From Naegleria gruberi (taxonomy: Eukaryota), in the NCBI GenBank assembly GCA_000004985.1, contig GG738993.1: a DNA stretch of 7,485 bases; one strand, written 5' to 3'. Under the pieces are notes generated by a model. It had not been told where the DNA came from. It made no database searches and saw only the letters and a list, made by a program, of their open reading frames with translations. Shown in pieces: positions 166-7,485 of this stretch. The position numbers were made by a program, and so were the translations under genes. Each line of letters opens with the position of its first letter. Position 1 is the stretch's first letter.

Positions 166-305
166 ATGAAATTAATTTATTATATACTCTTCCTACTTTT
201 TCTACTAACTTTCTCTAATTGTTCTTCTTCCTTCGACTTTCGAATATTTTCTCTTCCGAAAATTCAAAAGTATAATACCAAAGATATCCAACAACAAGTA
301 ACGAA
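166..305 (+). CDS. 5' exon fragment of the receptor-like kinase gene: signal peptide and start of ectodomain (MKLIYYILFLLFLLTFSNC|SSSFDF...), interrupted by an assembly gap
   Basis: ATG at 166 is followed by a classic h-region (LIYYILFLLFLLTF) and a small-residue cleavage context (SNC-SSS). Open frame runs to the N-run. The ORF-track frame differs from the downstream main ORF, but the 50-N gap is a placeholder of unknown true length, so phase cannot be compared. Confidence 0.55.
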
Positions 306-355
306 NNNNNNNNNNNNNNNNNNNNNNNNNNNNNNNNNNNNNNNNNNNNNNNNNN
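306..355. other. assembly gap (50 N)
   Basis: Run of exactly 50 N. Confidence 0.95.
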
Positions 356-356
356 C

Positions 357-2926
357 GTTGTGGATGTTCATATTGAAAGAAATATTTCTCGTTCGGACTG
401 TGCTTCGTTTCTGCAAGTTGAATTATTCGAAAGTAAGAATAATTTGCAATATTTGCAATTGTATTTAAGATTTATTGGAAACGGCAATGGAATTGATTGT
501 GATAACCAAGGATTCTTTGCATTTACTATTAATTCATCAAAAGTTACAAGATTAGTCCAATTTCAAAATGTCACCTTTCAATCGGTTCAATTATTTGGTG
601 AATTACTTATATTTAGAGATGTTAACTTTGATGGTGGAGTTACTGTTTATGAAAATGCAATAGTTATGTGGAAAGTAAATGGTGAACTACCTATTGGAAA
701 GATTTCAATAGAAGAAAGTCGATGGAGATCAATTCTATTGGTGGATTCGAATTTTGCAGTCGAATCTTTGAATTATTTGGAGAAGGTAACTTCATTGTGG
801 ATTATTAGAGTGGCATTTAAATTGAATAACGTATTCCAATTGGTGAATATTGATGATTTGATATTGGAACATGTTAAATTCATGCCAGAAATTTATGATA
901 ATCGAATTTACAAATCTCCATTTGTATCCTTACGATTTATCAAATATGTAGTATTATTTAGAACTGAAATTGATGGATTTTCATATCAAACTGCTTTGAG
1001 TATTGAATATTCTGTTAATGTATTGATTTCATACTCATCCTTTTCGAATAATCATGTAAATTCCAAAGATTCCAATACGAATATACTCCTAGCAAAGGGA
1101 CTCAATCAATTACATGTTCTATATTGTAACTTTTTCAATAATATTGCAGAGTATGGTTCTGTTTTTGAAATTACTGGAATAAGTTCTCTATTAATTAGTA
1201 TGAATTCATTTCACAATAATACTATTGCTAATAGTGCTTTATATTTGGGAAGATATGTCGATACACACTATAGCTATGTGAGGATTCAGAATTCGATATT
1301 TACCGATAACAAAAGTTATTCGAAGGGAGGTGCACTAACCATTGACAAGTTATCCTCAGAACCTAATTTAAGCATTGAAGTTTATGGATGTTCCTTTTCT
1401 GAAAATAGTGGTGAATTTGGTGGTGCTATTCATTCATTTTCCAAATTATTGGTCACTGGAGGAATGTTTTATTCCAATACAGCAGTTCAACAGGGAGGTG
1501 CTATCTTTGCCAAGGATGGCCTCTCTCTTAGAAGCACATATTTTATTAATAATTCAGTAATTGATACAAGTCTAACCTATTGTACAGATAATAATTGTAT
1601 TGGTAGTGGAGGAGCTGTTTCGTTTCTCGTTGAAAATGGATCAGATTCATCCCTAGTGATATTCAGAAGCTCTTTCGATGGTAACACAGCCACTAGAGGA
1701 GGTGGTATTAGTATTAGCAGACCCGATGAGTTGAGTATTGAAGGTAATACTTTTAAAGATTGCAAAGCTGATTTTGCTGGAGGAGCACTTTTCATTAGCT
1801 CAATACTTAATCAAACATTTTCTAGCTCGCTAATTGAAAGTAACGAATTTTCAAATAATCAAGGATTGACTTATGGGGATGATATGAGTTCAATAGTTTA
1901 CACAGTCAATTGGAAATACTCAATTGATGGAAAACAGTATAATTATTTAGATTCGAATGGAATCAAAATTTATCCTGGGCAGGTATTCTCACTTTTTCCT
2001 GAAGCTTTTGACATTTTTGACCAATACATTCCAGTATTGAAGGAAACAAGTGAATTAGGCATCAAAAATAGTGATAAATTCCAATTAGAAAGACAAGGTT
2101 ATTCATTCGGTAACATATTCATTTCCGTTATCAATCAAACAGATTTTGACTCAACAAAATTGACATTGGTGAGCGCGTTTAGTGTTACCATTTCTGAAAT
2201 TCCAATTATTGTTGAACCATGCCCTTCTGATACAAGTTTAAAGCCAGCCAATTATGGAAAATCTTATGATTTCATTTGTCAGCAAAAGCCATCCTATGAT
2301 TATGTTATTGCTGTGGCTGTAACTCTAACCGTACTCACATTATCATTCTCTGTGGGAATGGTAGCAGTTTGTACCTATTTATGTGTTAAAATAACTCGAA
2401 AAGTTAATTATTGGGTTAAAAGAGATAAAGCAGAAAAGGACATTGAGAAGAGATTGTTGGAAAACGAAATAACCTACATGGAGGATCATTCTCTACAAAC
2501 TGTCAACAGTACAGGATCTGGTAAGAGACAACAAGTGTCCTTCATCATTAGTATCGATCAGATATTTCCAGAAAAGAAGATTGGAGAAGGTGGATCAGGA
2601 GTTGTCTATTTGGGAAAGTGGCATCACCATCCTGTTGCTATCAAATGTTTGAAAATTGAAGACACTGCCAATTCTGATGAAATTGAAAAGGAAGCTGCAA
2701 TGTTATGTCGATTGAGACATCCTAATATTGTGCTATTTTATGGTGTTTCACTAACACAACACAAGCAATACCTCGTAGTTGAATATTTGGAAAGAGGAAG
2801 CTTGGAAAAGTATATTCAAGATATGAAACGTCAAGAAATATCAGTAACCTTCTCTGAAAAGTTGAAACTCTTAATTGACATTGCATGTGGAATGGTTTAT
2901 TTACACAGTTTGAAAATAATTCATAG
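357..2926 (+). CDS. receptor-like protein kinase, main exon: ectodomain with Pmp-type beta-helix repeats, single TM, juxtamembrane segment and kinase N-lobe up to catalytic-loop HR
   Basis: 856-codon open frame (track 360..2930) that is open back to the N-run, so there is no true start here. Several NxS/T sequons (NISR, NSSK, NVTF, NNTI, NKSY, NLSI, NNSV, NGSD, NQTF, NQTD). About 10 repeats of FxxN followed about 10-15 aa later by GGA[ILV] (GGALTIDK, GGAIHSFS, GGAIFAKD, GGAVSFLV, GGGISISR, GGALFISS). Hydrophobic 28-aa stretch then a basic stop-transfer (KITRKVNYWVKRDK). Kinase motifs IGEGGSGVVYLGKW, VAIKCLK, LVVEYLERGSLEKY, HR. The frame ends AG|GTAAGT at 2926/2927. Confidence 0.85.
1041..1890 (+). 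repeat. coding region for about 10 tandem about 25-aa Pmp-type (Chlamydia polymorphic membrane protein-like) FxxN/GGA[IL] repeats; parallel beta-helix signature
   Basis: FSNN 1041-1052, FFNN, FHNN, FTDN...GGALTI (GGA at 1326-1334), FSEN...GGAIHS, FYSN...GGAIFA, FINN...GGAVSF, FDGN...GGGISI, FKDC...GGALFI, FSNN 1848-1859. Spacing is regular. Confidence 0.75.
2304..2388 (+). other. transmembrane helix coding segment (VIAVAVTLTVLTLSFSVGMVAVCTYLCV)
   Basis: 28 consecutive hydrophobic or small residues, followed by K/R-rich residues on the cytoplasmic side. Lies between the glycosylated ectodomain and the kinase domain. Confidence 0.8.
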
Positions 2927-2975
2927 GTAAGTGTGTTCATATTAAGAATATTAGAATTTTACCAATGAAAATTAG
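2927..2975 (+). other. spliceosomal intron (49 nt, GTAAGT...ATTAG), phase 2, splitting the kinase catalytic loop HR|DLKPANIL
   Basis: The exon ends ...CAT AG | gtaagtgtgttc. After ...aaaattag the base A2976 completes AGA (Arg), and GAT TTG AAA CCT GCC AAT ATT TTG follows, giving the canonical HRDLKPxN motif. Unspliced, the frame hits TAA at 2928. Confidence 0.85.
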
Positions 2976-3019
2976 AGATTTGAAACCTGCCAATATTTTG
3001 ATGGATGCCAACTGGACTG
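2976..3019 (+). CDS. receptor-like kinase, next exon (R-DLKPANILMDANWT...), runs into assembly gap
   Basis: In phase with the upstream exon after splicing. Catalytic loop DLKPANIL, typical of Ser/Thr and TKL kinases. Truncated by the N-run at 3020. Confidence 0.8.
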
Positions 3020-5225
3020 NNNNNNNNNNNNNNNNNNNNNNNNNNNNNNNNNNNNNNNNNNNNNNNNNNNNNNNNNNNNNNNNNNNNNNNNNNNNNNNNN
3101 NNNNNNNNNNNNNNNNNNNNNNNNNNNNNNNNNNNNNNNNNNNNNNNNNNNNNNNNNNNNNNNNNNNNNNNNNNNNNNNNNNNNNNNNNNNNNNNNNNNN
3201 NNNNNNNNNNNNNNNNNNNNNNNNNNNNNNNNNNNNNNNNNNNNNNNNNNNNNNNNNNNNNNNNNNNNNNNNNNNNNNNNNNNNNNNNNNNNNNNNNNNN
3301 NNNNNNNNNNNNNNNNNNNNNNNNNNNNNNNNNNNNNNNNNNNNNNNNNNNNNNNNNNNNNNNNNNNNNNNNNNNNNNNNNNNNNNNNNNNNNNNNNNNN
3401 NNNNNNNNNNNNNNNNNNNNNNNNNNNNNNNNNNNNNNNNNNNNNNNNNNNNNNNNNNNNNNNNNNNNNNNNNNNNNNNNNNNNNNNNNNNNNNNNNNNN
3501 NNNNNNNNNNNNNNNNNNNNNNNNNNNNNNNNNNNNNNNNNNNNNNNNNNNNNNNNNNNNNNNNNNNNNNNNNNNNNNNNNNNNNNNNNNNNNNNNNNNN
3601 NNNNNNNNNNNNNNNNNNNNNNNNNNNNNNNNNNNNNNNNNNNNNNNNNNNNNNNNNNNNNNNNNNNNNNNNNNNNNNNNNNNNNNNNNNNNNNNNNNNN
3701 NNNNNNNNNNNNNNNNNNNNNNNNNNNNNNNNNNNNNNNNNNNNNNNNNNNNNNNNNNNNNNNNNNNNNNNNNNNNNNNNNNNNNNNNNNNNNNNNNNNN
3801 NNNNNNNNNNNNNNNNNNNNNNNNNNNNNNNNNNNNNNNNNNNNNNNNNNNNNNNNNNNNNNNNNNNNNNNNNNNNNNNNNNNNNNNNNNNNNNNNNNNN
3901 NNNNNNNNNNNNNNNNNNNNNNNNNNNNNNNNNNNNNNNNNNNNNNNNNNNNNNNNNNNNNNNNNNNNNNNNNNNNNNNNNNNNNNNNNNNNNNNNNNNN
4001 NNNNNNNNNNNNNNNNNNNNNNNNNNNNNNNNNNNNNNNNNNNNNNNNNNNNNNNNNNNNNNNNNNNNNNNNNNNNNNNNNNNNNNNNNNNNNNNNNNNN
4101 NNNNNNNNNNNNNNNNNNNNNNNNNNNNNNNNNNNNNNNNNNNNNNNNNNNNNNNNNNNNNNNNNNNNNNNNNNNNNNNNNNNNNNNNNNNNNNNNNNNN
4201 NNNNNNNNNNNNNNNNNNNNNNNNNNNNNNNNNNNNNNNNNNNNNNNNNNNNNNNNNNNNNNNNNNNNNNNNNNNNNNNNNNNNNNNNNNNNNNNNNNNN
4301 NNNNNNNNNNNNNNNNNNNNNNNNNNNNNNNNNNNNNNNNNNNNNNNNNNNNNNNNNNNNNNNNNNNNNNNNNNNNNNNNNNNNNNNNNNNNNNNNNNNN
4401 NNNNNNNNNNNNNNNNNNNNNNNNNNNNNNNNNNNNNNNNNNNNNNNNNNNNNNNNNNNNNNNNNNNNNNNNNNNNNNNNNNNNNNNNNNNNNNNNNNNN
4501 NNNNNNNNNNNNNNNNNNNNNNNNNNNNNNNNNNNNNNNNNNNNNNNNNNNNNNNNNNNNNNNNNNNNNNNNNNNNNNNNNNNNNNNNNNNNNNNNNNNN
4601 NNNNNNNNNNNNNNNNNNNNNNNNNNNNNNNNNNNNNNNNNNNNNNNNNNNNNNNNNNNNNNNNNNNNNNNNNNNNNNNNNNNNNNNNNNNNNNNNNNNN
4701 NNNNNNNNNNNNNNNNNNNNNNNNNNNNNNNNNNNNNNNNNNNNNNNNNNNNNNNNNNNNNNNNNNNNNNNNNNNNNNNNNNNNNNNNNNNNNNNNNNNN
4801 NNNNNNNNNNNNNNNNNNNNNNNNNNNNNNNNNNNNNNNNNNNNNNNNNNNNNNNNNNNNNNNNNNNNNNNNNNNNNNNNNNNNNNNNNNNNNNNNNNNN
4901 NNNNNNNNNNNNNNNNNNNNNNNNNNNNNNNNNNNNNNNNNNNNNNNNNNNNNNNNNNNNNNNNNNNNNNNNNNNNNNNNNNNNNNNNNNNNNNNNNNNN
5001 NNNNNNNNNNNNNNNNNNNNNNNNNNNNNNNNNNNNNNNNNNNNNNNNNNNNNNNNNNNNNNNNNNNNNNNNNNNNNNNNNNNNNNNNNNNNNNNNNNNN
5101 NNNNNNNNNNNNNNNNNNNNNNNNNNNNNNNNNNNNNNNNNNNNNNNNNNNNNNNNNNNNNNNNNNNNNNNNNNNNNNNNNNNNNNNNNNNNNNNNNNNN
5201 NNNNNNNNNNNNNNNNNNNNNNNNN
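3020..5225. other. assembly gap or masked region (2206 N)
   Basis: Uninterrupted N-run. The ORF-track entries 2965..5238 and 3005..5287 are artefacts of translating N as X. Confidence 0.95.
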
Positions 5226-5281
5226 ATTTTGCTTTTGATGATAAAGGAAGATGTGATATTGATTTATTTTTTTATTTTAAA

Positions 5282-5332
5282 CCCTAATGACGGAAATAAG
5301 TGGTAGTTTGCAAAAAATCGAGGGGTAAAATC
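5282..5332. repeat. intergenic composite motif, copy A: CCCTAATGACGG (5282-5293), GAAATAAGTGGTAGTTTG, TTGCAAAAAATCGAGGGGTAAAATC (5308-5332). Related half-sites GTGAGGGGTTGATTTGCAA (5390-5408) and TTGAGGACTTGAATTTT (5412-5428).
   Basis: Blocks shared with 6906-7008 (see the finding). GC-rich islands in AT-rich spacer. Confidence 0.5.
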
Positions 5333-5336
5333 AGGT

Positions 5337-5360
5337 ACCACTATCTGAACAGTGGTTTTT
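5337..5360 (+). other. 6-bp perfect hairpin (ACCACT-atctgaac-AGTGGT) followed directly by TTTTT
   Basis: The stem and T5 are read directly. It lies in the convergent 3' intergenic space between the kinase gene and the minus-strand gene. Confidence 0.3.
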
Positions 5361-5449
5361 ATCAAATCCAGACCTGGCTTTTTGAAAAAGTGAGGGGTTG
5401 ATTTGCAATAAATTGAGGACTTGAATTTTTTACAATCATAACCTAAACT

Positions 5450-5455
5450 TTTATT
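5450..5455 (-). promoter_or_regulatory. AATAAA polyadenylation signal of the minus-strand gene
   Basis: The + strand TTTATT at 5450-5455 lies 6 nt downstream, in the minus sense, of the TGA at 5463-5461. Confidence 0.4.
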
Positions 5456-5460
5456 AAGAG

Positions 5461-5647
5461 TCAACTTAGCAGAATGGAATGGTTGGAAAAATGACCAAGA
5501 CCAAATGAATCAACAAATGAAAATGCGAGGTCTTTGAGGTTAGTAATTGGCTCCGTGAAAGTGTGAGTAAATTTCCCATCCACGTAATTATCCAAAATAG
5601 CAGATACAGTATTGTTCTTCTCAATAAAACTTGTGATTATTACACGT
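5461..5647 (-). CDS. last coding exon of minus-strand gene (...RVIITSFIEKNNTVSAILDNYVDGKFTHTFTEPITNLKDLAFSFVDSFGLGHFSNHSILLS*)
   Basis: 60 sense codons stay open in the phase fixed by the upstream exon, then TGA at 5463-5461. On the minus strand AATAAA lies at 5455-5450, 6 nt after the stop. Acceptor atattttag at 5650-5648. Confidence 0.6.
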
Positions 5648-5686
5648 CTAAAATATTAGTTGCAATTTAGTTATGAAACCACTTAC
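5648..5686 (-). other. intron (39 nt; GTAAGT...TTTTAG) of minus-strand gene
   Basis: Minus-strand GTAAGT at 5686-5681 and TAG acceptor at 5650-5648. Splicing keeps a 93-codon frame open across exons 2 and 3. Confidence 0.6.
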
Positions 5687-5784
5687 TTTCCACTGCTAGT
5701 AAAAGCATATTGAGATTGATTTAAGTGAAAAATCCATTGATTTGACACTAACAATGTTCCCTGAAACAGTCTTGACCACCAAAT
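5687..5784 (-). CDS. internal exon (98 nt; IWWSRLFQGTLLVSNQWIFHLNQSQYAFTSSGK) of minus-strand gene
   Basis: Only one of three frames is open. It is bounded by a ccctttcag acceptor (AG at 5786-5785) and a GTAAGT donor (5686-5681). The phase matches both flanking exons. Confidence 0.55.
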
Positions 5785-5884
5785 CTGAAAGGGATGTATT
5801 AATACGGAAATCCTAAAGATATCAATAAATTAATTAATTTAAATACTTACATGATTCTTATCGATTAGTCGTAGAATTAAATAC
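5785..5884 (-). other. intron (100 nt; donor AAG|GTATTT at 5884, acceptor TTTCAG at 5785) of minus-strand gene
   Basis: A donor at 5884-5883 skips the in-frame TAA at 5860-5858 and keeps the frame. An internal GTAAGT at 5850-5845 is an alternative donor that would instead end the protein at ...KVFNSTTNR*. Confidence 0.45.
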
Positions 5885-6340
5885 CTTTGCCATTTTGCCA
5901 AAGTTGAGCACATATTTCAACAGAGCATCTTTAGTTTTACATAATAAATGATCTTTGGGAAGCAATTCTCCTAATAATTTCAATAACAATCCAATCTTTG
6001 ATGTTGCAATCTCGAAAAATACAATAATAAAGAGAATAATTGTTATTGCTGTAACAACATTCACCGCCTACCCCTTATACAATGATTCGTCAACAATACT
6101 ACTACTATTGTCATTTAAATCAAATCCTCCCAATTCTCCAAAACTGAAACTCTCTTGCTCATGAAAAATTACTTCTTGTTGTCCAGATTTCAAACTTGAT
6201 TCATCTATTTCCAATTTCCAATTTCCAGTTAATAATTGTTCCTTTGTTACATTTTTGCTAATATCTTCATAGTCTCTTTTACAACCTTCTTGATACGTTT
6301 TCGTTCTCTGTATGTTTTTGTGTATTGAATGTTTTTCTTC
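5885..6340 (-). CDS. 5'-ward exon of minus-strand gene. 151 codons in one frame, interrupted by a single in-frame TAG at 6070-6068. Includes the hydrophobic segment VVTAITIILFIIVFFEIATSKIGLLLKLL. The 5' end and start codon are not resolved.
   Basis: Minus-strand frame: EEKHSIHKNIQRTKTYQEGCKRDYEDISKNVTKEQLLTGNWKLEIDESSLKSGQQEVIFHEQESFSFGELGGFDLNDNSSSIVDESLYKG-TAG-AVNVVTAITIILFIIVFFEIATSKIGLLLKLLGELLPKDHLLCKTKDALLKYVLNFGKMAK. The frame is closed upstream by TAA at 6343-6341. An ATG at 6359-6357 is in another frame. The purine-rich coding strand is the minus strand. Confidence 0.45.
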
Positions 6341-6430
6341 TTAACGCTTTTTGATTCATTTTTAATGTTTCATAAATGATAGACTTCTTAATTTAGAAAT
6401 TCTTCTTTCCAATAAAAGTGCTTTCTGTAG

Positions 6431-6648
6431 ATGGTGTTGGAGCCAAGATTAGATTTGAAGAGGTTGTTATTTCAGATAAAATCAATGAAGGAGAACACCT
6501 TGACATTCAGTTGGTAGAGGATATTTGCTTGACTTTTCAAAATGAGTGTCTCTTCAGTGAAATCAAGGACAAGATCAAAGACTATTTGAGTTCAGCTTTG
6601 AAAAAGAGAAGAGTCGAATTGAAGTTGAATAGTGTTTGTGACTTGTAA
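6431..6648 (+). CDS. terminal coding exon with no ATG (...VDGVGAKIRFEEVVISDKINEGEHLDIQLVEDICLTFQNECLFSEIKDKIKDYLSSALKKRRVELKLNSVCDL*) of an unidentified small gene
   Basis: 84-codon open frame with coding-like purine-rich composition and codon usage like the kinase gene. No in-frame ATG. The acceptor-like site ttcttctttccaataaaagtgctttctgtag ends at 6430. TAA at 6646-6648, then AATAAA at 6688-6693 and a GT-rich element at 6699-6718. No upstream partner exon was found. Confidence 0.4.
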
Positions 6649-6687
6649 ATTGGTGTGATGAGTGTGATGTGACAATTCTAAAAATTG

Positions 6688-6718
6688 AATAAACCAAATT
6701 TGTGTGCTATGGTGTGTT
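6688..6718 (+). promoter_or_regulatory. putative polyadenylation signal AATAAA plus a downstream GU-rich element for the 6431-6648 exon
   Basis: AATAAA lies 40 nt after the TAA. tttgtgtgctatggtgtgtt lies just downstream. Confidence 0.4.
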
Positions 6719-6905
6719 AGCCATTTAGGAATTGAATTTTGGTGGTCTGTTGTTTTTCGGAATGAGGTAGTTGTTTTTCAAAAGTAGCCGCCCTCTATTC
6801 TTTTTTCGAAAAATCAACTCCCGAATTTAATAAAACTTAATAGTTAAATACAGGGTACAATTTATGAAAAACACCAACCCTGTTGTTTAGCTGTGTGATT
6901 CTGAT

Positions 6906-7008
6906 GAAATGTGGTAGAAGATTTGTGTCAAAGTAGGACCTAAATTCATTTTTTTTTTGCTCAGGTTGGTGGTTTTTTGCGGTTCAGGGGTAAATCCCGT
7001 CATTAGGG
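6906..7008. repeat. intergenic composite motif, copy B: GAAATGTGGTAGAAGATTTG (6906-6925), TTTTTTGCGGTTCAGGGGTAAATC (6973-6996), CCGTCATTAGGG (6997-7008). Lies immediately upstream of the CPSF1 start.
   Basis: The 12-mer CCGTCATTAGGG is the exact reverse complement of 5282-5293. Both copies carry the (C/G)AGGGGTAAA(A)TC and GAAAT..GTGGTAG..TTTG blocks. Confidence 0.5.
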
Positions 7009-7051
7009 AAATAAATTTTAATAAAAATAAATTAAAAAAATTTCCAATACA

Positions 7052-7485
7052 ATGTTCGCGTGCTACAAACAGCTTCATCCTCCAACAGCTGTGTCATTCT
7101 GTTTGAAGGCACGATTTACATCAGCTAATGATGAAAATCTGATCATTGTTAAAAACAACATTATGGAGGTTTATTTAATCAAACCGAATACATCCAATAT
7201 TGTTCTTGTAAAAGTTTTTGAATTATTTGGAGTAATTGATTCTATAATTGCTGTTTGTCTTCAGGGTATGAAAAAGGAAATGCTTTTAATTAACTTTGAA
7301 GATGAAGCAAAAGTATCTGTTGTGGAGTTTGATGAGAAGAGGAGTGATCTTAAAACTTTATCTTTGCATTATCTCGAAGATGACTTTTTGAGAGAAGGTA
7401 AAGCTAGATTCTTTCACAATCAACCAATTATTTTGGATCCACAAAATAGATTTGCTACAGTAATTATTTGCGACTCTAAATTAGT
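7052..7485 (+). CDS. CPSF1: cleavage and polyadenylation specificity factor 160 kDa subunit (CPSF1) homolog, N-terminal beta-propeller region; the CDS continues past the window end
   Basis: ATG at 7052, then 144 codons open to the window end. The translation [43 protein letters not shown]...[45 protein letters not shown] matches the conserved N-terminus of metazoan CPSF1, recalled from memory as MYAVYKQAHPPTGLEF...[38 protein letters not shown]. The weaker relatives DDB1 and SF3B3 belong to the same family. Confidence 0.8.
   Translation, partial: [144 protein letters not shown]

What the first reader, a model, noticed from the sequence alone, without database searches (positions are those of the whole stretch)
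6068..6070. Single in-frame TAG inside an otherwise continuous 160-codon minus-strand reading frame
On the minus strand the same frame is open from 6340 to 5861. The only interruption is one TAG at 6070-6068, in the context ...SLYKG-TAG-AVNVVTAITIILFIIVFFEIATSK.... With the splice pattern that keeps phase (donor at 5884), the same frame continues for 93 more codons through two canonical introns to TGA 5463. A chance 69-codon open frame in AT-rich DNA that lies exactly in frame after a real stop is improbable (about 1%). The TAG is therefore more likely a draft-assembly base error, a very recent pseudogenising mutation or a read-through stop than a true gene end. A G at +4 (TAG G) is not a classic leaky context, so an error or a pseudogene is favoured.
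Basis: seen in the sequence. Interest (0 to 1): 0.5.

Follow-up and report, generated by a model that had tools for sequence, protein, structure and literature searches.

The report
Inherited stop codon in transposon-borne ORF relic
The in-frame TAG is a real base triplet, not a sequencing error, and it lies in a decayed, start-less reading frame carried by a 1.7-kb inverted-repeat-bounded mobile element of the amoeba Naegleria gruberi, which makes it an ordinary relic and not a broken host gene.

Summary
On the minus strand the frame is open from 6340 to 5861, and TAG 6070-6068 is the only stop. A 69-codon in-frame continuation arises by chance about 0.2-1% of the time.

The window is a whole 7,485-bp Naegleria gruberi scaffold. 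The TAG lies inside a 1,727-bp segment (5282-7008) bounded by perfect 12-nt inverted repeats (CCCTAATGACGG). Two contigs from an unrelated metagenome run (ERR1078381) carry the same segment at 99.2% and 97.5% identity. Their similarity to the window stops exactly at the inverted repeats, and their flanking genes are different. I read this as a mobile or repeated element.

All three copies have TAG at this site, so a draft base error is excluded. The stop also predates the divergence of the copies.

All three copies lack an ATG in the upstream 90 codons. Differences between copies in the candidate exons are 8 non-synonymous or nonsense against 2 synonymous. One copy has a nonsense codon in a downstream exon and another has a frameshift.

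No homolog, Pfam domain or solved structure matches any part. The best reading is a decayed ORF in a non-autonomous transposon-like element. A 259-nt intron that begins at the TAG, or two small genes, remain possible. Interest is low.

The parts
5282..7008 (.). 1,727-bp repeated or mobile element that contains the whole finding
   Evidence: L001 matches window 6981->5281 at 99.18% and L002 matches 7031->5302 at 97.5%. In alignment A2 the similarity ends exactly at the two 12-mers and the flanks beyond them are unrelated.
5282..5293 (+). terminal inverted repeat CCCTAATGACGG, left end. A conserved GCAAAAAA lies 16 nt further inward at both ends.
   Evidence: 2 matches in the window against 0.10 expected by chance.
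6997..7008 (-). terminal inverted repeat CCCTAATGACGG, right end, 43 nt upstream of ATG 7052 of the RSE1/DDB1/CPSF1-family gene
   Evidence: Pfam PF10433 hit on the neighbouring gene.
6071..6340 (-). U: the 90 open codons upstream of the TAG, with no ATG. Only 6256-6071 looks coding.
   Evidence: Codon log-likelihood ratio (LLR) of U core is 0.353 per codon, z = 4.35 against stop-free shuffles. The 5' 28 codons score -0.11. P0023, a 50-aa gene call from the metagenome copy, ends at the same residue.
6068..6070 (-). the in-frame TAG (context AAG GGG TAG GCG)
   Evidence: It is TAG in the window, L001 and L002.
5861..6067 (-). D: the 69 open codons after the TAG, comprising a TM-like stretch AVNVVTAITIILFIIVFFEIATS plus an amphipathic tail, ending at TAA 5860-5858
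   Evidence: Stop-free in 0.22% of shuffles. Codon LLR is 0.026 per codon (z = 1.95, p = 0.033), which falls between real coding windows (mean 0.136, minimum 0.024) and long wrong-frame ORFs (-0.07 to -0.14). Only 5 of 400 stop-free shuffles reach its hydropathy. AlphaFold2 from the single sequence gives two helices at pLDDT 72. There is one F->C difference in the other copies.
   Evidence: The donor is weak, and a GTAAGT lies at 5850 inside it.
5813..6071 (-). alternative 259-nt intron (GG|GTAGGC...ATCTTTAG). It would remove the TAG and D and join U in frame to ISVLIHPFQ+E3.
   Evidence: The mean N. gruberi intron is 203 bp (PMC8296547).
5687..5784 (-). E3: candidate exon IWWSRLFQGTLLVSNQWIFHLNQSQYAFTSSG(K)
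   Evidence: Codon LLR is 0.121. CAA->TAA nonsense at 5739 in L001.
5648..5686 (-). 39-nt GTAAGT...TTTTAG intron between E3 and E4. It preserves the frame and contains stops.
   Evidence: It carries 2 substitutions in the other copies.
5461..5647 (-). E4: candidate last exon ending at TGA 5463-5461, with AATAAA at 5455-5450 eight nt later
   Evidence: Codon LLR is -0.061. L002 has a 1-nt deletion (frameshift) and a 9-nt deletion, and there are 4 non-synonymous and 1 synonymous differences.
6253..6270 (-). ATG 6270-6268 (MKILAK, out of frame) followed by the A5 run 6257-6253. One extra A would join this ATG to U (MKILAKNVTKEQLL...).
   Evidence: Read from the sequence. The A5 run is identical in all three copies, so the frame offset is real.
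6397..6648 (+). divergent plus-strand ORF of 83 codons inside the element, with no in-frame ATG
   Evidence: Codon LLR is 0.225, z = 3.9. There are no substitutions in L001, a 1-nt insertion upstream at 6411 in L001 and L002, and a 2-nt deletion in L002. It has no Pfam hit or homolog. AlphaFold2 pLDDT is 65.7.

Best explanation
The window is a small Naegleria gruberi scaffold. Positions 5282-7008 are one copy of a 1,727-bp element bounded by perfect 12-nt terminal inverted repeats. It is most likely a non-autonomous (transposase-less) DNA-transposon-like repeat.

The 160-codon frame lies wholly inside this element. I read it as the relic of a formerly continuous ORF: an acidic N-terminal part followed by a single transmembrane-like helix. 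That ORF was disabled by the TAG and by loss of an in-frame start before the sequenced copies diverged.

The relic is now copied passively with the element and drifts neutrally. No protein spanning the TAG is made.

Shown here: the TAG is real and shared between copies; the segment is bounded by inverted repeats and sits in different genomic contexts; there is no ATG; differences between copies show no purifying selection.

Inferred: the element moves by transposition, and the parts on either side of the TAG were once one coding sequence.
For: - The kinase ORF is 100% identical to a Naegleria gruberi predicted protein whose longest contig is 7,485 bp.
- P0023, a 50-aa gene call from run ERR1078381, is 98% identical to U and ends at the residue before the TAG.
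- Its contigs L001 and L002 align to the window at 99.2% and 97.5%. The alignment ends exactly at CCCTAATGACGG/CCGTCATTAGGG.
- The flanks differ. L002 is flanked by the C-terminus of a PfkB-like kinase gene and L001 by the C-terminus of a trypsin-like protease gene. The window copy is flanked by the promoter of an RSE1/DDB1/CPSF1-family gene.
- The 12-mer occurs twice, inverted, against 0.10 expected.
- TAG, the A5 run and the absence of an ATG are identical in all three copies.
- Differences in U, D, E3 and E4 are 8 non-synonymous or nonsense against 2 synonymous. The neutral expectation is 80% non-synonymous. By my own binomial estimate, this outcome has a probability of about 0.02 if omega is 0.2 or lower.
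- L001 has a nonsense codon in E3 and L002 has a frameshift in E4.
- For an ancestral continuous ORF: D is stop-free in only 0.22% of shuffles, has above-null codon bias (p = 0.033) and has a hydrophobic 19-mer reached by 5 of 400 stop-free shuffles. U core is clearly coding-like (z = 4.35).
- No transposase, Pfam domain, PDB relative or any homolog was found.
Against: - Only three copies were seen, two of them from one metagenome run. Metagenome contigs of repeats can be chimeric or collapsed.
- A target-site duplication is not established. TTT/TTT flanks the window copy, and the L001 and L002 ends do not match each other.
- No autonomous partner or transposase is known, so transposition is inferred only from the inverted repeats and the differing flanks.
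- No copy has a sense codon at the TAG position, so the 'once continuous' step is statistical only. D's codon score is borderline.
- U and D stay open in all three copies, although they carry only 3 substitutions in total.
- I could not look at transcripts.
Confidence: 0.55

Rival explanations
1. An expressed element-borne gene in which the TAG is never read. A 259-nt GT-AG intron begins at the G before the TAG (GG|GTAGGC, 6071) and ends at AG 5814-5813. It joins U in frame to ISVLIHPFQ-IWWSRL... (E3), then the 39-nt intron, then E4. The 69-codon frame D is intronic and open by chance.
For: - The splice keeps the frame and yields ...SLYKG|ISVLIHPFQIWWSRL... through to TGA 5463-5461.
- A length of 259 nt is ordinary for N. 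gruberi, where the mean intron is 203 bp (PMC8296547).
- The only minus-strand AATAAA after U is at 5455, just after the E4 stop. This suggests one transcription unit.
- The E3-E4 junction has a textbook GTAAGT...TTTTAG intron that preserves the frame.
Against: - It needs a 0.2-1% coincidence for D to be open in frame. D also has a TM-like profile and mild codon bias.
- The donor GTAGGC is off consensus, whereas every clear intron in the window uses GTAAGT.
- The start codon is still missing.
- The ISVLIHPFQ extension scores -0.38 per codon.
- E3 has a nonsense codon in L001 and E4 a frameshift in L002.
- There are no homologs or domains.
Confidence: 0.15
2. The TAG is the native end of a short ORF (U, about 50-70 aa). 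D is open by chance. A separate small gene (E3+E4) starts at ATG 5913 with the 66-nt GTAAGT intron 5850-5785, or at ATG 5893 with the reader's 100-nt intron.
For: - Prodigal-type gene calling on the metagenome copy gives exactly this 50-aa product ending at the TAG.
- ATG 5913 plus donor GTAAGT 5850 plus acceptor CCCTTTCAG 5785 is a clean in-frame model.
- Long spurious ORFs of 59-77 codons do occur in this genome.
Against: - It needs the same 0.2-1% coincidence for D.
- U has no ATG in any copy.
- There is no AATAAA between the TAG and 5455.
- Only about 155-175 nt would separate the two genes.
- The 21-codon first exon from ATG 5913 scores -0.23 per codon.
- E3 and E4 are disrupted in L001 and L002.
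Confidence: 0.17
3. The TAG is a base-calling or assembly error in a low-coverage draft scaffold, and the true codon is a sense codon.
For: The scaffold is small and has two N gaps, at 306-355 and 3020-5225.
Against: Both independently sequenced copies have the identical GGGGTAGGCGG while differing at 13 or more other sites. An error that recreated the family's own state is implausible.
Confidence: 0.02
4. Programmed read-through or recoding of the TAG yields a U-X-D membrane protein.
For: The frame is open on both sides of the TAG in all three copies.
Against: - G at +4 and GCG GTG downstream do not fit any leaky context I know of (my own knowledge, not tested here).
- The 96 nt around the TAG (5 nt before it, 88 nt after) fold no better than shuffles (z = -0.71).
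- The 856-codon kinase ORF contains no in-frame stop, so the standard code is in use.
- There is no start codon.
- Differences between copies are neutral in pattern.
Confidence: 0.03
5. None of the minus-strand frames was ever coding, and all of the open frames are chance products of composition.
For: - There are no homologs at all.
- There is no ATG.
- Differences between copies are neutral in pattern.
- E4 and the 5' part of U score like non-coding sequence.
Against: - U core scores above every cross-validated real coding window (0.353 against a maximum of 0.26-0.39; z = 4.35).
- The frame-preserving GTAAGT intron between two open frames is a further coincidence.
Confidence: 0.08

Closest known systems
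Non-autonomous TIR (class II) DNA transposons that carry decayed internal ORFs
   Same: It has perfect 12-nt terminal inverted repeats and a conserved subterminal 8-mer at both ends. Near-identical copies (97.5-99.2%) sit in different flanking contexts. Insertions lie in AT-rich intergenic DNA close to gene ends. The internal ORFs lack a start codon, carry stops or frameshifts, and drift neutrally.
   Different: No transposase or autonomous partner is identified, and the superfamily is unknown. The target-site duplication is unproven. Copy number in N. gruberi itself could not be measured with these tools.
piggyBac-like elements
   Same: The repeat starts 5'-CCCTA... and ends ...TAGGG-3', as I recall for piggyBac termini (from memory, not tested here).
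   Different: No TTAA flanks any of the four ends observed. In minus-strand orientation the window copy reads TTT|CCC...GGG|TTT, L002 reads ATT|CCC and L001 reads GGG|TAC. No DDE_Tnp_1_7-type transposase was found.
Unitary or nonsense-mutation pseudogenes of host genes
   Same: An in-frame stop splits an otherwise open, partly coding-like frame.
   Different: The stop is shared by all copies of a repeat and is not a recent lesion at a single host locus. There is no intact paralog or ortholog to define the parent gene.

Membership tests
TIR DNA transposon (class II), non-autonomous | Terminal inverted repeats at both ends | tested here: met
   Perfect 12-nt CCCTAATGACGG at 5282-5293 (+) and 6997-7008 (-). 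This is 2 matches against 0.10 expected.
TIR DNA transposon (class II), non-autonomous | Multiple copies whose similarity ends at the repeats and whose flanks differ | tested here: met
   The window, L001 and L002 are 97.5-99.2% identical inside the repeats. Outside them the flanks are unrelated and carry different genes. All non-window copies come from one metagenome run.
TIR DNA transposon (class II), non-autonomous | Target-site duplication of fixed length | tested here: inconclusive
   The window copy has AAA|element|AAA on the plus strand, which could be a 3-bp duplication in AT-rich DNA. L001 and L002 each show one end only, and those ends do not match each other.
TIR DNA transposon (class II), non-autonomous | A transposase, either encoded or supplied by a related autonomous element with the same ends | tested here: not met
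   No ORF has a Pfam transposase hit. There are no homologs. No other sequences with these ends were found in JGI metagenomes or IMG/VR. The N. gruberi genome itself could not be searched.
piggyBac superfamily | TTAA target-site duplication | tested here: not met
   None of the four observed ends abuts TTAA.
Programmed stop-codon read-through gene | Leaky stop context and/or a stimulatory downstream RNA structure, plus purifying selection on the extension | tested here: not met
   The context is TAG-G. The fold z-score is -0.71. The only difference in D is non-synonymous, and the overall count of 8 to 2 is neutral.
Protein-coding gene of N. gruberi (spliced model U-D-E3-E4) | In-frame ATG, an uninterrupted spliced ORF and conservation | tested here: not met
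   There is no ATG in U. The TAG is present in all copies. E3 has a nonsense codon in L001 and E4 a frameshift in L002. There is no annotated N. gruberi protein or any homolog.

The most novel reading that the evidence does not exclude
The element could be the first seen member of an undescribed TIR transposon family in Heterolobosea. In that case its two divergent orphan ORFs (U/D on the minus strand and 6397-6648 on the plus strand) would be functional cargo. One example would be a small single-pass membrane protein made by an unusual route, such as a non-AUG start with the TAG either removed as part of a 5' splice site or read through. The shared TAG would then be a maintained feature and not a lesion.
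Probability: 0.05. Interest if true: 0.5.

Novelty: new member of a known kind. Interest (0 to 1): 0.2.

Why it matters
For annotation, this locus should be masked or labelled as a repeat-borne ORF relic. It should not be 'repaired' into a 250-aa gene, and the TAG should not be treated as an assembly error.

It also shows how to test the 'in-frame stop equals draft error' hypothesis without raw reads. Near-identical copies recovered from public metagenome assemblies serve as independent sequencing of the same family.

The element itself is a small addition to the poorly catalogued mobile DNA of Naegleria. It has 12-nt inverted repeats, lies 43 nt upstream of a CPSF1/DDB1-family gene, and is 99% identical to copies in an environmental sample.

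Tried and rejected
- Pfam scans of every conceptual product (U, D, D+E3+E4, U+E3+E4, the ATG-5913 model and the plus ORF) gave nothing below E = 0.1.
- A PDB sequence search gave only one weak hit, E = 0.025, with no passing stretch.
- Two word-indexed protein searches, with the 246-aa read-through product and with a 385-aa composite of all candidate exons plus the plus ORF, gave no hit even at E <= 10.
I therefore sent only U, which led to P0023. The second hit, P0024 (E = 9e-4), is a repetitive 1,744-aa protein and was dismissed as compositional.
- Exact look-ups of P0001 and of the window's own 48-aa TTG-start product found nothing. The 76-aa plus ORF retrieved only the same Logan contig.
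- Scans for the element ends and for the TAG-spanning sequence in JGI metagenomes and IMG/VR returned zero matches.
- Rfam and tRNA scans found nothing.
- I considered a reassigned genetic code. I rejected it because the 856-codon kinase ORF has no in-frame stop.
- I noticed a second in-frame TAG on the plus strand (ATG 6376...TAG 6394...ORF). I rejected it because a 1-nt insertion in L001 and L002 breaks that frame.
- A 25-28-nt mini-intron joining ATG 6359 to U is too short compared with the 38-49-nt introns seen here.
- I first took the inverted 12-mers for two copies of a short repeat. Alignment beyond the 12-mer and the GCAAAAAA was poor, and the metagenome copies then showed that they are the element's ends.
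- AlphaFold2 from single sequences gave the plus ORF pLDDT 65.7 and D pLDDT 72 as two helices. These are too weak or too generic to use, so I ran no fold search.
- The bacterial promoter and terminator scan is irrelevant to this organism.
- A literature search for PRJEB11402 found no paper.

Full report
**1. Observation.** The window is AT-rich (about 30-35% GC) and has two N gaps, at 306-355 and 3020-5225. On the minus strand, the frame with codon starts at 6340, 6337 and so on reads 90 sense codons (6340-6071). TAG follows at 6070-6068, then 69 sense codons (6067-5861), then TAA at 5860-5858. The preceding stop is TAA 6343-6341. The coordinates and the quoted peptide are correct.

In this report I call the upstream part U and the downstream part D. 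E3 and E4 are the two candidate exons further downstream.

How unlikely is D by chance?
- Only 0.22% of shuffles of its own 207 nt are stop-free.
- In the window, 1.1% of all stop-to-stop ORFs reach 69 codons.
- The other two minus frames have 4-5 stops over the same span.

One caution applies: wrong frames of the real kinase gene also hold five open stretches of 59-77 codons.

**2. Organism and code.** The 856-codon ORF at 360-2930 is 100% identical to a 'predicted protein [Naegleria gruberi]' whose longest contig is 7,485 bp. The window is therefore an entire small scaffold of the N. gruberi draft. That ORF contains no stop of any kind, so the standard code is in use. Published N. gruberi statistics are 33% GC, 1.7 exons per gene and a mean intron of 203 bp (PMC8296547).

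**3. Anatomy of the candidate gene.** U contains no ATG. ATG 6359 (MNQKALRRK...RRL*) and ATG 6270 (MKILAKM*) are in other frames. One extra A in the A5 run at 6257-6253 would join ATG 6270 to U.

I trained a codon log-likelihood ratio (LLR) on the 998 reliable codons of the window. Scores per codon were:

| Segment | Coordinates | LLR per codon | z or p against stop-free shuffles |
|---|---|---|---|
| U core | 6256-6071 | 0.353 | z = 4.35 |
| 5' 28 codons of U | 6340-6257 | -0.11 | not coding-like |
| D | 6067-5861 | 0.026 | z = 1.95, p = 0.033 |
| E3 | 5784-5689 | 0.121 | z = 2.19 |
| E4 | 5646-5464 | -0.061 | z = 1.40 |

For comparison, cross-validated real coding windows of 69 codons have a mean of 0.136, an sd of 0.072 and a minimum of 0.024. 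Long wrong-frame ORFs score -0.07 to -0.14. D is therefore intermediate.

D begins with a TM-like stretch (AVNVVTAITIILFIIVFF). Only 5 of 400 stop-free shuffles reach its hydropathy. AlphaFold2 from the single sequence gives two helices at pLDDT 72, which fits but is not diagnostic.

- donor AAG|GTATTT at 5884 and acceptor AG at 5786-5785, giving a 100-nt intron;
- E3;
- a 39-nt GTAAGT...TTTTAG intron;
- E4, ending at TGA 5463-5461.

That continuation is 94 codons.

Other models are equally legal:
- A 259-nt intron whose donor overlaps the TAG itself (GG|GTAGGC at 6071, ending at AG 5814-5813) joins U directly to ISVLIHPFQ+E3 in frame.
- The only consensus GTAAGT donors on this strand are at 5850 and 5686. 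The one at 5850 fits a separate small gene that starts at ATG 5913.

The only minus-strand AATAAA after U lies 8 nt beyond the E4 stop.

**4. Homology.** No candidate product has a Pfam domain or a solved-structure relative. Two word-indexed searches of 5.8 billion proteins found nothing, not even an annotated N. gruberi model. The exhaustive HMMER search accepted only contiguous window ORFs, so I submitted U. It returned P0023, a 50-aa protein that is 98% identical and ends exactly at the residue before the TAG. P0023 comes from Logan and ENA assemblies of run ERR1078381.

**5. The decisive comparison.** P0023 is encoded on contigs L001 (2,096 nt) and L002 (1,975 nt). L001 matches window 6981->5281 at 99.18%, with 13 mismatches and 1 gap. 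L002 matches 7031->5302 at 97.5%.

In the three-way alignment (A2) similarity ends exactly at two inverted 12-mers: CCCTAATGACGG at 5282-5293 (+) and at 6997-7008 (-). These had already been noticed, and their count is 2 against 0.10 expected.

Beyond the 12-mers the flanks are unrelated:
- L002 continues into the C-terminus of a PfkB-like sugar kinase gene (...LDETGAGDTF...).
- L001 continues into the C-terminus of a trypsin-like protease gene on the other strand.
- The window copy lies between a 56-nt stub next to the assembly gap and the promoter of an RSE1/DDB1/CPSF1-family gene (ATG 7052; PF10433).

A segment of fixed length, bounded by terminal inverted repeats and found nearly identical in different contexts, is the signature of a mobile or repeated element. 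Here it is 1,727 bp long and has no recognisable transposase, so it appears to be non-autonomous. Its location next to an assembly gap on a tiny scaffold fits a repeat.

**6. What the copies say about the TAG.** All three copies read ...AAG GGG TAG GCG GTG.... A base-calling error in the draft is therefore excluded, and the stop predates the divergence of the copies. The A5 run and the lack of an ATG are also shared, so the start defect is real too.

Differences between copies in U, D, E3 and E4 are:
- eight non-synonymous or nonsense: W->L, S->N, F->C, Q->stop at 5739 in L001, R->S, S->F, T->A and A->T;
- two synonymous.

The neutral expectation for these codons is 80% non-synonymous. With omega at 0.2 or lower, such an excess would have a probability of about 0.02 by my own binomial estimate. 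L002 additionally has a 1-nt deletion (a frameshift) and a 9-nt deletion in E4, plus a 12-nt deletion in the 5' part of U.

The minus-strand ORF segments are, if anything, more diverged than the rest of the element outside the plus-strand ORF: 10 differences in 756 nt against 4 in about 720 nt. Nothing indicates selection on any protein encoded here.

**7. Interpretation.** The best-supported reading is that the 160-codon frame is a decayed ORF carried by a non-autonomous, TIR-bounded element. U, and probably D, descend from real coding sequence. The evidence for that is the codon bias, the 0.2-1% improbability of D being open in frame, and the TM-like profile. The ORF lost function through the TAG and the missing start before the present copies arose, and it now drifts.

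The 'draft error' option is wrong. The 'very recent mutation' option is wrong in timing, and the single 250-codon spliced gene is unsupported. I cannot exclude that the TAG is never in an exon (the 259-nt intron model), or that it is the natural end of a short ORF followed by a second small gene. Both need the D coincidence, and both inherit the missing start. Read-through has no support: the context is TAG-G and the fold z-score is -0.71.

**8. Comparison with known systems.** It behaves like a non-autonomous class II transposon. Two defining features are met: the inverted repeats, and multiple copies with different flanks. The target-site duplication is inconclusive (AAA/AAA at the window copy). 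A transposase or autonomous partner is not found.

The termini begin CCCTA..., as piggyBac ends do (from memory). However, no end abuts TTAA, so piggyBac membership fails. I could not search the N. gruberi genome, Repbase or transcripts. Further scans of JGI metagenomes and IMG/VR found no more copies.

**9. Verdict.** The interest score is 0.2. The modest new item is the element itself.

Noticed in passing
window 6397-6648 (+): An 83-codon plus-strand ORF lies divergent from U. It has clear coding-like codon bias (LLR 0.225, z = 3.9) but no in-frame ATG. ATG 6431 is off by one base, and ATG 6376 is separated from it by TAG 6394-6396. It is identical in L001 and has a 2-nt deletion in L002. 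It has no Pfam hit or homolog, and AlphaFold2 gives pLDDT 65.7.
   Followed up: partly
window 166-3019 (+): This is a receptor-like kinase gene. It has a signal peptide, an ectodomain of Chlamydia-type polymorphic membrane protein repeats (GGAI motifs), a TM segment and a TKL-type kinase domain split by a 49-nt GTAAGT intron (2927-2975). The best non-self hits of the ectodomain are proteins, mostly unnamed, whose precomputed Pfam domains are PF02415 and PF03797 (PMP-repeat and autotransporter families; E down to 1e-30). This suggests a bacterial origin for the ectodomain. The annotated protein P0001 is 754 aa, whereas the ORF is 856 codons. The 50-N gap at 306-355 breaks the 5' end.
   Followed up: no
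window 6997-7052: The right end of the element sits only 43 nt upstream of the ATG (7052) of an RSE1/DDB1/CPSF1 first-beta-propeller gene (PF10433, E = 1e-13). The insertion is therefore in that gene's promoter or 5' UTR.
   Followed up: no
window 5258-5281, 7009-7032; L002 267-292: Three of the four observed flanks just outside the inverted repeats are T-rich with a TTTATTTTT-like motif. This suggests a preference for AT-rich targets. The flanks are not part of the element, because identity drops from 99% to patchy there.
   Followed up: partly
window 5337-5356: A hairpin (ACCACTATCTGAACAGTGGT, 6-8 bp stem by strand as scanned) lies in the subterminal part of the element, followed by a T-run on the plus strand. 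It is conserved in all copies. Its function is unknown.
   Followed up: no
window 5282-5287 and 7003-7008: The inverted repeats begin with CCCTAA / end with TTAGGG, which is the common eukaryotic telomere-repeat hexamer. This is probably coincidence.
   Followed up: no
window 2927-2975, 5648-5686, 5813-5850: All clear or candidate introns here that have a GTAAGT donor are very short (49, 39 and 38 nt), compared with the published N. gruberi mean of 203 bp.
   Followed up: no
L002 (alignment A2 columns 984-995; window 6325-6314): L002 has a 12-nt deletion flanked by the direct repeat ATACA, and a 9-nt deletion in E4. These look like replication-slippage deletions in one copy, or like assembly collapse of several copies.
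   Followed up: no
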